Assembly: GCA_044892525.1 (NCBI GenBank)
Contig: CM097885.1
Location: forward strand, 27,654,001-27,718,000
Direction of reading: 5' to 3'
DNA from: Schmidtea polychroa
Taxonomy: Eukaryota
DNA: 64,000 nt
The first letter of the stretch is position 1, and the number at the start of each line of letters is the position of its first letter. Shown here in pieces: positions 1,868 to 18,428 of the stretch. Under the pieces are notes generated by a model. It worked only from the letters and a program-made list of their open reading frames with translations. It was not told the origin of the DNA and ran no database searches. A program made the translations under genes and the position numbers.

Positions 1868-3964
1868 TGTTGGGTACTTAGGGGTGGTCAATTTTCCATT
1901 TAAAGTACGTTAGGGGTAATCATAATCGTTCAACTCTTTCCTAAGCACCTCCACGACTATTGCAATTTAAACCATTTGTGTACCCATGGCGACGACCATG
2001 TTGGTACTGTACACAAAGGTGAAAAAAACAATGAGCAGGTGAGCTCTATTGCTAAAACTACTCCCCATTGTATTTTCTCTTCGGGTTCTAGACTTCCGAT
2101 AGAAGGTCTTACGTCATTAATCTCTATGTAAGCTATTTTTAGATCATTTGTGGTCCTCAAGTAAGGGTATTCTCAACTATTCCCCCATAAAAATTTTTGC
2201 AGGGATCCGCCCTTATTTTCCATTTAATAATTATTGTTATATACTTCCTATAATATCCAAATTATCCTTCAAAAATTTTGAGCAGGGATTGGCCTCATTC
2301 ACAAGTTAATAAACATATTTCCACACTTCTCATGAAAATTTGAGCAGGGATCTGCCTGTATTTCTAATCCTGAACTATCGGGTATCTTAACCATTCGCAG
2401 TTTCTATAAGATTACCTAAACCTACTTTATCTACCGAAAACTGGACATAACTATCCTATTATTTCTCCCAACTCGGAAATATCTATGAAAATAAGAGTGA
2501 CTGAGCCGTCCTATACTACCTAACTCTAAATAAGGCCTTAAACTATCGCAAATTGATTTCCCCCCTCTAACCGTTCATATCCCTATCTATATTCCTTACC
2601 CCGATGGACTCAACTGGCGAAACATCTGCCGACCAACAGCACGTAGTACCGCCCGTCCACAAACCTTCCCCCAGTCCAGACCATCGACACATAAATATCA
2701 AGAAAAACCCAACCTAAATTATAATATTATTCAAAAAGGACAAAAATAAGATACGCCAAACATAAAAATTAATTAAAAACAAATTCCGTTAAAAATTTTA
2801 TTAATTCCTAAAATTGTATAACATTAAACTTAACAACAACAAAATGAATAATACCATACCAATATTAACAATTAACTTCAATTTAAAATAACATTATCTA
2901 AATAACAAAATAAATTAACTAAATAACATTAACGAAAATTAACTTCAATTTAAAATAACATTAGACCTAACAAAATTACATTACACAAAACAAAAATCAA
3001 ATTTACCTCACCGCGGTGGCATGGAATCGAAAATTGAGAGCATATGTTCACTGCCAGTAAGTAAATTGTTGTGTAACCAGTTAGAATATCCAATTAGAAT
3101 GCGAGGCAATTCTGATTAATTTTTGCATGCATGCATGAACGTGTGCAATTATTTATTTTTTAATTTAATTAATTTAATTAGTCAAAATTCTAATTTTTAT
3201 TAATTTTTAAGATTTAGTTTTATAAATTTTATAATTTAAATAGTTTTTGCTAATTTTAATTTAGTTTTACAAGTTTATAATTTAAATAAGTTCAGTTAAT
3301 TTTACTTAAGTTTCATTAATTTAAACAATTTGGTTTTATAAGTTTTATAATTTAAATAATTTTGTTGGTTTTATTTTTAGTTTTCATTAAACAATTTAGT
3401 TTTATAAATTTTATGGTTTATCTAATTTTACTACTTTTATTCTACTTTTTATTATTTTACCAGTTTACTAGATAATTTATTTTAAATTTTAAATTTATTT
3501 ATTTAGAAATTTTTCATATTATTAATTAATTTATTACCCATTATTTTATTTATTATTATTTTATTTCTTAGTTGTTAGCTATTCCGAATGCGATGTTTCT
3601 CCTAATTGTGTTAGTGATAGTAGGTAGTTAGTGGCTTACGGCAGCAATAGGGGGGGGGGTAAAAAATGTTGCAAACTTTTGATTGCATAACTTTTTCCGT
3701 AGACATTTTTTGATTACATAATTGTTGCCGTAATGCCCAATGTTTTCTGGGATTTTAAATACAAAATTTTTTTTTTTTTTTTTTTTTTTTTCAATAAACA
3801 AGCCAAGGATAAATATTATTTGGGTGGGTCTCCTTGGTCCTGAGAATTTCAATAGAAAAAGGTAGTCTTCAATAAAAAAGCATGGATTTTTCACACTATA
3901 GTGAGGGGATCTTCTTGGTCATGAGAATTTCAATAGAAAAGGTGGTTTACATTAAAAAACGCAT

Positions 3965-4650
3965 AGTAAATTTTTAAAATAAAGTAAATTATGGGTCTAA
4001 AATTTAAAAATAAAGTAAATGATGGGTCTAAAAATTTAAGTAAATCAAGGTTCAGATTTATTTTTGAAATAAAGTAAATTATGGTCTAAATAAGTAAATT
4101 ATGGGCTAAGATTTTTCAATTAAAGTAAATAATGGTTCTAAAAAATTAAATTACAGTAAATTATGGTCCAAATTTTTAAATTAAAGTAAATTATGGTTCT
4201 TAAAAATTAAATTAAAGTAAATTATGGTTCTTAAAAATTAAATTAAAGTAAATTATGGTTCTTAAAAATTAAATTAAAGTAAATTATGGTCAAAATTTTT
4301 GAATTACAGTCCAAAAATTTAAATTAAAGTAAATTATGATCCAAATTTTTAAATTAAAGTAAATAATGGTTCTAAAAAATTAAATTAAAGTAAATAATGG
4401 TCCAAATATTTTAAATTACAGTAAATAATGGTTCTAAAAATTAAATTACAGTAAATAATGGTCAAAAATTTTAAAATTAAAGTAAATTATGGTTCTAAAA
4501 ATTAAATTAAAGTTAATTAAGGTCCAAATTTTAAAATTAAATAATCAATGGTAAAAAAAAATTTAAATTAAAGTTAAATAAGTAAATTAAAGTAATAATT
4601 TTTAAATAAGTAAATTAAAGTAATGTAATAAGTAAATTAAAGTAAGATTT
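3965..4650. repeat. Subterminal ~31-bp degenerate tandem repeat (AAATTAAAGTAAATTATGGTTCT...); mirror copy at ~17430-18082
   Basis: Directly visible tandem array; the mirror arm has one fewer copy of the TTCTTAAAAATT... unit. Confidence 0.9.
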
Positions 4651-4792
4651 TTAAATTTATTAACAAAAATAGAAGGTGTTTGAGAATTGAAATTTTTTAA
4701 TGGAAATTTTAATGAATTATTTTTTAAGTAATTTTTAATAGAAATTTTTATGAATAATTTTCAATGGTAATTTTTAATGGAAATTTTTATGA

Positions 4793-17185: not shown

Positions 17186-17247
<62 letters not shown>

Positions 17248-18428
17248 TCATAAAAATTTTCATTAAAAATTATCTTAAAAATTATTCTATTAAAATTTCC
17301 ATTAAAAATTACCATTGAAAATTATTCATAAAAATTTCTATTAAAAATTACTTAAAAAATAATTCATTAAAATTTCCATTAAAAAATTTCAATTCTCAAA
17401 CACCTTCTATTTTTGTTAATAAATTTAAAAATCTTACTTTAATTTACTTATTACATTACTTTAATTTACTTATTTAAAAATTATTACTTTAATTTACTTA
17501 TTTAACTTTAATTTAAATTTTTTTTTACCATTGATTATTTAATTTTAAAATTTGGACCTTAATTAACTTTAATTTAATTTTTAGAACCATAATTTACTTT
17601 AATTTTAAAATTTTTGACCATTATTTACTGTAATTTAATTTTTAGAACCATTATTTACTGTAATTTAAAATATTTGGACCATTATTTACTTTAATTTAAT
17701 TTTTTAGAACCATTATTTACTTTAATTTAAAAATTTGGATCATAATTTACTTTAATTTAAATTTTTGGACTGTAATTCAAAAATTTTGACCATAATTTAC
17801 TTTAATTTAATTTTTAAGAACCATAATTTACTTTAATTTAATTTTTAAGAACCATAATTTACTTTAATTTAAAAATTTGGACCATAATTTACTGTAATTT
17901 AATTTTTTAGAACCATTATTTACTTTAATTGAAAAATCTTAGCCCATAATTTACTTATTTAGACCATAATTTACTTTATTTCAAAAATAAATCTGAACCT
18001 TGATTTACTTAAATTTTTAGACCCATCATTTACTTTATTTTTAAATTTTAGACCCATAATTTACTTTATTTTAAAAATTTACTATGCGTTTTTTAATGTA
18101 AACCACCTTTTCTATTGAAATTCTCATGACCAAGAAGATCCCCTCACTATAGTGTGAAAAATCCATGCTTTTTTATTGAAGACTACCTTTTTCTATTGAA
18201 ATTCTCAGGACCAAGGAGACCCACCCAAATAATATTTATCCTTGGCTTGTTTATTGAAAAAAAAAAAAAAAAAAAAAAAAATTTTGTATTTAAAATCCCA
18301 GAAAACATTGGGCATTACGGCAACAATTATGTAATCAAAAAATGTCTACGGAAAAAGTTATGCAATCAAAAGTTTGCAACATTTTTTACCCCCCCCCTAT
18401 TGCTGCCGTAAGCCACTAACTACCTACT
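11545..18428. repeat. Right arm of giant inverted repeat (~6.9 kb)
   Basis: Reverse complement of 3619-10633, differing visibly in tandem-repeat copy number, a short AT-rich insertion near 17257-17295 and homopolymer length. Confidence 0.95.
12681..16998 (+). CDS. Protein-primed family B DNA polymerase (Polinton type), right-arm copy; predicted exons 12681-12711, 12756-12812, 12859-12921, 13126-16998 with +1 frameshift in A9 at 13859-13867
   Basis: All exo and pol motifs lie in 14104-16998. Removing one A joins ORF 13185-13904 to an open frame GSSWIIKKITEIHFTI...GRSFIELP...INIKNTDDSCFLYSILA, the typical Polinton pPolB OTU-like N-terminal region. An EndoVII-like DHDH...YLGAACSTCN insert is present. 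Three phase-1 GT-AG introns keep the frame. Confidence 0.85.

What the first reader, a model, noticed from the sequence alone, without database searches (positions are those of the whole stretch)
3619..18428. Polymerase-only, almost fully palindromic Polinton-like element: candidate satellite or copy-back genome
Seen: a discrete 14,810-bp insertion with AGTAG...CTACT ends and a clean 6-bp TSD. Its inverted repeats are ~7 kb each, covering about 94% of the element, and each holds a whole pPolB gene pointing outward from a 0.9-kb repeat spacer. No integrase, capsid, ATPase or protease is visible. Known: Polintons have TIRs of hundreds of bp, 6-bp TSDs and their own integrase. Inference: the palindrome integrated as a unit using an integrase supplied in trans, so it may be a self-replicating, helper-dependent parasite of Polintons or a copy-back/snap-back defective genome made by template switching during strand-displacement replication. 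Its pPolB and termini are clearly different from those of the neighbouring Polinton. The arms differ in repeat copy number and the host element resumes after the TSD, which argues against a fold-back read artefact.
Basis: partly seen in the sequence, partly recalled or inferred. Interest (0 to 1): 0.92.

Follow-up and report, generated by a model that had tools for sequence, protein, structure and literature searches.

The report
Mirror-image polymerase-only Polinton derivatives
This 14.8-kb stretch is one of more than a hundred recently inserted, mirror-image offshoots of a virus-like jumping element; they kept only its DNA polymerase gene, twice, and their two arms carry the same inherited mutations, which points to how these elements copy themselves.

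Summary
Real, not an assembly artefact. The element (3,619-18,428) has a 6-bp TSD, an empty site elsewhere, and 7.0/6.9-kb arms that differ only in tandem arrays. It belongs to a young family: 140+142 exact termini genome-wide; 16 of 17 copies with both ends read have their own TSD; none of 20 sampled centres holds capsid or integrase. Variants shared between copies lie in both arms (329 of 332), which fits fold-back copying before insertion.

Three corrections. (1) The polymerase frame is broken, identically in both arms here (7 of 24 copies). (2) The spacer is the remnant of a nested Polinton of another family (B). (3) A complete relative exists, family P, with integrase, capsid-like and ATPase genes in many copies and a polymerase 94-99.7% identical over the long frame.

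So this is a copy-back, defective-genome lineage of an active Polinton that now spreads as a palindrome, not an independent satellite. Helper identity, extrachromosomal forms and packaging are inferred. Ten literature searches found no description; nearest are 2-kb gene-bearing TIRs in butterfly Polintons. The scan noted gene-less and copy-back relatives earlier on other DNA of this genome.

The parts
3613..3618 (.). left copy of the 6-bp target-site duplication (AGTGAT)
   Evidence: empty site in L259
3619..10633 (-). left arm (7,015 bp): terminus, subterminal arrays, pPolB reading outward, leader region, 144-bp array
3619..3900 (+). family-A terminus (AGTAGGTAG...), presumed protein-primed origin and integrase end; function inferred
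   Evidence: 140 forward + 142 reverse exact 27-nt matches, 0 for the control pattern
3967..4656 (.). subterminal 31/61-bp tandem arrays, related (77-80%) to arrays in both TIRs of complete family P
5036..8173 (-). pPolB long frame, left copy (1,045 codons stop to stop; vOTU-like Cys/His, exonuclease and polymerase motifs)
   Evidence: (PF03175, E 5e-31 on the identical right copy)
8130..8908 (-). pPolB N-terminal frame, left copy (putative terminal-protein region); frame break against the long frame at about 8,130-8,175
   Evidence: domain order from 10.1101/2024.03.18.585575, assignment here inferred
9113..9353 (-). three predicted leader mini-exons, left copy (mirror of 12,681-12,921)
   Evidence: plus arm identity; predicted only
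9964..10524 (.). 144-bp tandem array, 3.9 copies (2.9 in the right arm, 11,653-12,070)
10634..11544 (.). central spacer: remnant of a family-B Polinton (B subterminal repeats; one inward-facing B terminus at 11,517-11,533, the other lost in this copy)
   Evidence: 87-98% to ends of complete B copy L081/L053/L054
11545..18428 (+). right arm (6,884 bp), reverse complement of the left arm
12681..12921 (+). three predicted leader mini-exons (31, 57, 63 nt; GT..AG introns of 44, 46, 204 nt), phases agree with the N-terminal frame starting at 13,126
   Evidence: no RNA joint seen among the rows shown
13126..13904 (+). pPolB N-terminal frame, right copy; frame break in a short A-rich run at about 13,859-13,904
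13861..16998 (+). pPolB long frame, right copy
18429..18434 (.). right copy of the target-site duplication (AGTGAT)

Best explanation
A copy-back (defective-genome type) lineage of an active Polinton that has become a transposing family of its own. SHOWN: it is palindromic, multi-copy and inserted with 6-bp TSDs; it lacks integrase, capsid and ATPase; its arms are made identical in each lineage before insertion; its polymerase end is shared with complete family P; its centre is a remnant of a family-B Polinton. INFERRED, step by step: (1) a B Polinton inserted upstream of the polymerase gene of a P-type element; (2) during protein-primed strand-displacement replication the displaced strand paired on the nested TIRs, lost its distal part and copied back to the polymerase-side terminus, giving two origins and two polymerase genes; the B interior then shrank to 0.5-1.5 kb; (3) each later round passes through a snap-back hairpin or panhandle, so that a change in one arm is fixed in both or lost; (4) linear product is integrated by the integrase of a complete Polinton, most likely P (same AGTAGGTAG end group), otherwise B; (5) this copy, with a broken frame in both arms, was replicated by polymerase from another copy. 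My odds: real mobile family 0.97; copy-back derivative of the P group 0.9; fold-back homogenisation during replication 0.8; nested-TIR trigger 0.6; P as integrase donor 0.55, B 0.3.
For: Family and TSDs: (16 of 17). Palindromy without morphogenesis genes: 20 of 20 sampled C1 pairs have inverted arms, 17 with pPolB and 3 non-coding, none with capsid or integrase in the stretch read. Arm homogenisation: 0.087% within vs 0.40% between 12 elements; shared variant occurrences 329 in both arms, 3 in one; frame state equal in both arms in 24 of 24 readable copies; large deletions shared by both arms. One-arm changes look neutral (7 synonymous of 56), both-arm changes do not (97 of 171; neutral share 0.20-0.26). 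Parent family: L261/L262/L265 plus L266-L268; P capsid-like gene 40 of 40 scored hits at 100%; P integrase 150 of 150 scored hits at 98-100% with a 42-nt GT..AG intron-like gap shared with B. Centre: inward-facing termini with inverted, TSD-less junctions; junction counts 324+328 (B type, up to 1 mismatch) and 90+101 (second type); 9 of 9 short terminus pairs read were palindrome centres. Nested Polintons are common: 7 of 27 distinct sites lie in Polinton DNA (my count). Mirror product from the other end of family B: L263/L264, 5.4-kb arms with TBP-like, ATPase and cut integrase genes.
Against: No extrachromosomal form, transcript or long read was seen; the contigs laid are too short to bridge arm and spacer. 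The P copy read in full has other outer termini, no TSD and another leader region, so it is a close relative, not the exact parent. Only 28 of 171 both-arm variants equal the allele of that P copy, and many fall in blocks shared by a few elements, so the synonymous excess may be imported by recombination rather than earned in the palindromes. Several palindromes have no nested-terminus centre (L068, L069, L087, L088, L158-L161), so nested TIRs are not required for palindromy. Shortened centres could also arise by deletion after insertion.
Confidence: 0.75

Rival explanations
1. A true satellite: the palindromes are maintained by selection on their own polymerase, are packaged in helper capsids and compete with the helper like defective-interfering particles.
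For: 30 of 40 C1 pairs are 12.5-16.5 kb (median 14.7 kb), close to complete B (16.2 kb), although non-coding relatives fill that length with unrelated AT-rich repeats. 17 of 24 readable copies keep the frame open at the break site, and both-arm variants are mostly synonymous.
Against: Copies of 6.9-11.8 kb also carry TSDs. 8 of the 43 arm-bearing loci tested lack the predicted leader exons through one shared deletion yet have spread. Size may simply be twice the distance from terminus to fold-back point. No particle data.
Confidence: 0.3
2. Arms are homogenised in the chromosome (cruciform or hairpin repair, gene conversion) after insertion, and the family spreads by ordinary integrase-driven transposition without a fold-back replication step.
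For: Long palindromes are known to convert and to delete their centres (recalled); spacer-less and lopsided copies exist (L045, L068, L087, L088).
Against: 56 private one-arm changes persist unconverted and look neutral, whereas inherited changes are in both arms in 329 of 332 occurrences: the pattern of LTR-like identity at insertion followed by drift.
Confidence: 0.12
3. Assembly or read artefact: fold-back chimeras, or co-polishing of the two arms.
For: Arms of this copy have no substitution outside arrays; no single read could be examined.
Against: Distinct flanks with matching TSDs in 16 of 17 copies and an empty site; arm-specific differences in other copies; hundreds of loci with one fixed centre junction; the centre stretch is held by runs of several studies.
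Confidence: 0.03
4. An independent, old satellite lineage with its own polymerase clade, unrelated to the host's complete Polintons.
For: pPolB is only 27% identical to the neighbouring Polinton and 62% to family B; leader region and outer terminus are not found in the P copy read.
Against: Four P loci carry a polymerase 95-97% identical at DNA level, one read through to capsid-like, integrase and ATPase genes and the others picked by the capsid-like gene or leader beside them; A groups with B and a third complete family of this genome (SH-aLRT 99, quick tree).
Confidence: 0.05

Closest known systems
Polintons/Mavericks (self-synthesising, virus-like DNA transposons; adintovirus-like)
   Same: pPolB with vOTU-like, exonuclease and palm motifs, AGT-type ends, 6-bp TSD, 13-25-kb size class (PMC10748475, PMC8097293, passages read).
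   Different: No integrase, capsid, ATPase or protease; inverted repeats of about 7 kb against the published 46-1,447 bp (PMC8097293) or 100-1,500 bp (PMC10748475); polymerase duplicated.
Butterfly Polintons with about 2-kb gene-bearing TIRs (Pannagram preprint 10.1101/2025.02.07.637071, section 12 read)
   Same: TIRs extended over coding genes, giving two copies of each per insertion.
   Different: Those are described as full-length and duplicate hexon and adenain; here the repeats take up 94%, duplicate the polymerase and replace all other genes.
Copy-back/snap-back defective viral genomes, and adenovirus genomes formed by recombination between inserted inverted repeats (titles seen in reference lists; content recalled)
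   Same: One end duplicated in inverted form around a short centre; helper needed; for adenovirus the same protein-primed strand-displacement chemistry and an inserted inverted repeat as trigger (recalled).
   Different: Here natural, germ-line integrated with TSDs, amplified to hundreds of copies and often still coding a polymerase.
Non-autonomous Polintons, Foldback/Galileo elements and transpovirons (recalled; Galileo and transpoviron papers seen as search listings only)
   Same: Dependence on an autonomous partner; long TIRs with tandem arrays (Foldback/Galileo); linear helper-associated replicon (transpovirons).
   Different: Galileo is a P-element-type transposase system, transpovirons code a helicase-polymerase derivative and depend on giant viruses; neither is a pPolB-bearing whole-genome palindrome.

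Membership tests
Polinton/Maverick (autonomous) | [quoted passage not shown] | tested here: met
   PF03175 E 5e-31, motifs located; frame broken in this copy
Polinton/Maverick (autonomous) | retroviral-like integrase in cis | tested here: not met
   no such frame in the element or in 20 sampled centres
Polinton/Maverick (autonomous) | capsid proteins, packaging ATPase, protease | tested here: not met
Polinton/Maverick (autonomous) | TIRs with AGT-type ends and 5-8-bp TSD | tested here: met
   (16 of 17 with 6-bp TSD)
Polinton/Maverick (autonomous) | TIR length of about 50-1,500 bp | tested here: not met
   7,015/6,884 bp against ranges in PMC8097293 and PMC10748475
Non-autonomous Polinton derivative | shares ends or internal sequence with a complete family in the same genome | tested here: met
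   family P: 92.8% over 4.4 kb from subterminal arrays into pPolB; outer terminus differs in the copy read
Non-autonomous Polinton derivative | multiple independent insertions with TSDs | tested here: met
Copy-back/snap-back defective genome | one parental end duplicated in inverted orientation, other end lost | tested here: met
Copy-back/snap-back defective genome | replicates only with helper functions and interferes with the helper | not testable with these tools
   no culture or copy-number dynamics available
Satellite (helper-packaged, own lineage) | little or no sequence relationship to the helper | tested here: not met
   polymerase long frame 94-99.7% identical to family P in 300-bp windows
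Satellite (helper-packaged, own lineage) | encapsidated in helper particles | not testable with these tools
   only the indirect size clustering

The most novel reading that the evidence does not exclude
These are germ-line fossils of natural defective-interfering particles of a Polinton virus: palindromic genomes that replicate through a snap-back hairpin, are held near genome length by packaging into helper capsids, and form a tiered system (complete Polintons, polymerase-only palindromes, gene-less palindromes) that recurs in several families of one animal genome. That would be direct genomic evidence both for strand-displacement replication and for a virion stage of animal Polintons.
Probability: 0.3. 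Interest if true: 0.9.

Novelty: new variant of a known kind. Interest (0 to 1): 0.72.

Why it matters
How Polintons replicate, and whether animal Polintons make particles, rests largely on gene content (PMC8097293 states that Maverick particles had not been observed). Here hundreds of insertions record a replication step: 7-kb arms that are identical at insertion and drift afterwards, like LTRs. That gives a clock for dating insertions, a prediction (snap-back hairpin DNA of about half element length in cells with active Polintons) and a simple packaging test. It also shows that pipelines which require five or more Polinton genes inside short TIRs (as in PMC10748475) would miss this class, and that short-read assemblies would collapse it.

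Tried and rejected
Related loci in viral contigs with the window protein and in metagenome contigs with P0001: none. With alignment A1, 80 + 13 loci came back. None of the 93 showed a long palindrome; the closest (42-54% identity) are 1-4.5-kb contigs holding little beyond the polymerase, so they say nothing either way. Whether the architecture occurs in other species is therefore open.

Sequencing runs: no RNA holder listed. Laying four runs gave short contigs only, none bridging arm and spacer; runs guessed as RNA cover parts of the polymerase, but this is no evidence of expression. No Rfam match in 3,619-11,600, no tRNA in the window, no solved-structure match for the long frame. The fold of the centre only restates the arm pairing.

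Idea that the centre is the junction of two intact monomers head to head: rejected, since the inner termini face into the spacer. Idea that the centre is a free mini-element: not seen, 9 of 9 short pairs read were centres. Idea that family P has a dead integrase: rejected, the gap looks like an intron shared with B. Idea that region 'X' is a conserved cis element of all palindromes: only 69-74% AT-rich matches, absent from this copy. Targeted insertion into Polintons: 7 of 27 sites, enrichment not tested because the Polinton share of the genome is unknown. The careful tree did not finish; one search is the quick tree.

Literature: ten searches found no description of palindromic polymerase-only Polintons. 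The original Polinton paper and two adenovirus papers were not held; Repbase entries and supplements were not seen and may describe such elements. Two searches used a flatworm host name that was my guess from genome size and composition; no call names the host.
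Full report
OBSERVATION. The window holds a 14,810-bp element at 3,619-18,428 with AGTAG...CTACT ends and AGTGAT on both sides. Another copy of the host repeat (L259) matches the left flank at 98% and the right at 96% and carries AGTGAT once, so this is a clean insertion. 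The arms are 7,015 and 6,884 bp around a 911-bp spacer (93.8%). They differ only in tandem arrays and one G run. Each arm codes a protein-primed polymerase pointing outward (PF03175, E 5e-31; motifs). The gene is split into frames of 278 and 1,045 codons at a short A-rich run, identically in both arms. By the domain order TP-vOTU-exo-palm (10.1101/2024.03.18.585575, passages read) the break falls between the putative terminal-protein region and the protease-polymerase; that assignment is my inference. Contigs of two other runs show this run to vary in length among copies. Three GT..AG-bounded mini-exons upstream (12,681-12,921) are in phase with the N-terminal frame.

A FAMILY, NOT AN ARTEFACT. 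The own genome (781 Mb, handle G000) has 140 forward and 142 reverse exact matches to the first 27 nt, none to the control. A one-mismatch pattern for the arm-centre junction gives 324+328, so the exact terminus count is a lower bound. Of 17 copies with both ends read, 16 have a perfect 6-bp TSD, all different except one segmental duplicate pair. On contig C1, 40 terminus pairs have a median of 14.7 kb; 30 lie at 12.5-16.5 kb, 6 are shorter and 4 longer. The two long ones opened hold nested retro- and DNA transposons. I read the centres of 20 of these 40. All have inverted arms (L062, L063 and L068 lopsided through deletion), 17 with the polymerase and 3 non-coding, and none holds a capsid, integrase or ATPase match.

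THE ARMS ARE HOMOGENISED BEFORE INSERTION. Over the long frame, arms of one element differ by 0.087%, arms of different elements by 0.40% (12 elements, two of them duplicates). In 33 elements (61 arms; duplicates L023 and L033 dropped), variants shared between elements are in both arms in 329 of 332 occurrences; private variants are in both arms 67 times and in one arm 56 times. The frame state at the break is the same in both arms in 24 of 24 readable copies (17 open, 7 broken; 9 not readable in both arms). One-arm changes are 7 synonymous of 56, as expected under neutrality (0.20-0.26), while both-arm classes are 97 of 171 synonymous (dN/dS about 0.2-0.3). The excess survives removal of five divergent elements (47 of 84). 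Against over-reading: these variants come in blocks shared by a few elements, and 28 of 171 equal the allele of the one complete relative compared, so part of the signal may be imported by recombination. The pattern argues against co-polishing, which would not leave one-arm differences, and against continuing chromosomal conversion.

THE CENTRE IS A NESTED POLINTON REMNANT. The spacer matches the ends of a complete 16.2-kb Polinton, family B (87-98%). B has a TSD, TBP-like, A32-like ATPase, rve-chromo integrase, a capsid-like frame (Atlas look-alikes with DJR-like Pfam on 15-24% of members, a lead) and a 1,370-codon polymerase 62% identical to A. Its integrase has 150 of 150 scored hits at 99-100%. 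In most copies both edges of the centre carry an inward-facing B terminus, 546-1,502 bp apart in 15 measured; this copy has lost one. The two junctions are mirror images with no TSD, as expected if one is a copy of the other. A second centre type, about 0.3 kb with other inward-facing termini, occurs at 90+101 junctions. All 9 short terminus pairs read were palindrome centres. Some palindromes have no such centre (L068, L069, L087, L088; non-coding L158-L161), so it is a scar rather than a requirement.

A COMPLETE RELATIVE EXISTS. At C1:6.706-6.725 Mb a 19-kb element (family P) matches the A arm at 92.8% over 4.4 kb. It continues upstream into a capsid-like gene, two further frames, integrase, ATPase and TBP-like genes. 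Polymerase identity is 87-91% in the N-terminal 600 bp and 94-99.7% in 300-bp windows beyond. Three more P loci, picked by their capsid-like gene or leader, have the same A-like polymerase (95-97%). The P capsid-like gene gives 40 of 40 scored hits at 100% and its integrase 150 of 150 at 98-100%, with a 42-nt intron-like gap at the place where B has one. The P copy read has other outer termini, no TSD and another leader, so it is a close sister of the true parent. In a quick tree of 49 rows, A groups with B and a third complete family D of this genome (support 99), far from the neighbouring Polinton (P was found later and is not in it). Copy-back products also come from the opposite end: L263/L264 is a spacer-less palindrome of B with 5.4-kb arms holding TBP-like, ATPase and a cut integrase (TSD not resolved). 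Gene-less palindromes with A, B and related termini occur too.

MECHANISM. Shown: architecture, mobility, arm homogenisation, relationship to P and B, and nested Polintons as a common event (7 of 27 distinct sites, my count; one with a clean TSD inside a neighbour-type polymerase). Inferred: a nested element supplied internal inverted repeats; the displaced strand of protein-primed replication paired on them and copied back to the polymerase-side end; the palindrome now replicates through a hairpin or panhandle and is integrated by a helper integrase, probably that of P. The adenovirus precedent for inverted-repeat-driven end duplication is recalled; I saw only the titles. This copy, broken in both arms like 6 others, and the 8 loci lacking the leader imply replication in trans for at least part of the family.

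COMPARISON AND NOVELTY. It works like a copy-back defective genome of a Polinton. It fails membership of autonomous Polintons (no integrase or capsid, TIRs five times the published maximum; PMC8097293 and PMC10748475, passages read) and of satellites in the strict sense (it is nearly identical to a helper family). The nearest printed case I found is the 2-kb gene-bearing TIRs of butterfly Polintons (10.1101/2025.02.07.637071, section 12 read). Ten searches found no palindromic polymerase-only family, but the founding paper, Repbase and supplements were not seen. Earlier notes of this scan describe a gene-less palindromic family and a copy-back Maverick on other DNA of this genome. I re-found both kinds independently; they are not separate support. 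Verdict: new variant of a known kind, interest 0.72, with a 0.3 chance that size clustering reflects packaging in helper virions.

Noticed in passing
window 21,748-36,580: Complete Polinton of a distant family (ends AGTAGTGAGG, about 380-bp TIRs): 1,476-codon pPolB with an N-terminal C2H2 finger, A32-like ATPase split over two frames, integrase frame carrying a phospholipase A2-like domain, DJR capsid.
   Followed up: partly
window 36,579-38,422 (-): A ubiquitin-domain frame (PF00240, two stretches) directly upstream of a DUF1759 (BEL/Pao gag-like) frame; possibly a captured ubiquitin in a retroelement.
   Followed up: no
window 39,767-46,270: Gypsy-type LTR element with 870-bp LTRs at 98.5%, gag/pol in three frames.
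   Followed up: no
L081:6016-6492, L260:8231-8698, L265:1265-1777: Complete families B, D and P each code a small TBP-like protein (PF00352, E 3e-15 for B) beside the ATPase; also in earlier scan notes.
   Followed up: partly
L262:5,490-5,540 and the matching place in L081: Intron-like 42-nt GT..AG gap inside the integrase of family P, at the position of an in-frame low-complexity insert in family B.
   Followed up: partly
L263/L264 (G000:C3:10.376-10.387 Mb): Spacer-less 10.8-kb palindrome from the integrase-side end of family B, itself lying in A-like sequence. Several inverted pairs of P integrase hits 6-9 kb apart may be the same kind.
   Followed up: partly
L047-L049 (G000:C3:74.138-74.146 Mb): About 7-kb family-B derivative with roughly 2-kb inverted ends that include the polymerase 3' end: a lopsided copy-back.
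   Followed up: partly
L066/L082/L086, L073/L084/L085, L158-L161, L051: Gene-less palindromes of about 10.7-17 kb with A-, B- or related termini and AT-rich filler arms; two checked have 6-bp TSDs.
   Followed up: partly
L091 (G000:C1:209.70 Mb): A Penelope-like RT/GIY-YIG element nested in a palindrome is itself arranged as a perfect inverted pair (100% over 2.7 kb).
   Followed up: no
L261:1002-1950 and L265:4126-5040: The P copy read is capped by an extra 0.9-kb terminal module (ends AGTAGAGGG, small 140-150-codon frame) outside an inner AGTAGGTAG terminus: termini may be gained by capping.
   Followed up: no
run X20 (organism B): A run labelled as another organism holds short pieces of the 144-bp array and polymerase at 90-97%, so related elements exist in a second species; architecture not visible.
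   Followed up: no
P0001-P0055: A clade of 45-64% identical pPolBs known almost only from ENA/JGI assemblies on short contigs, without names.
   Followed up: partly
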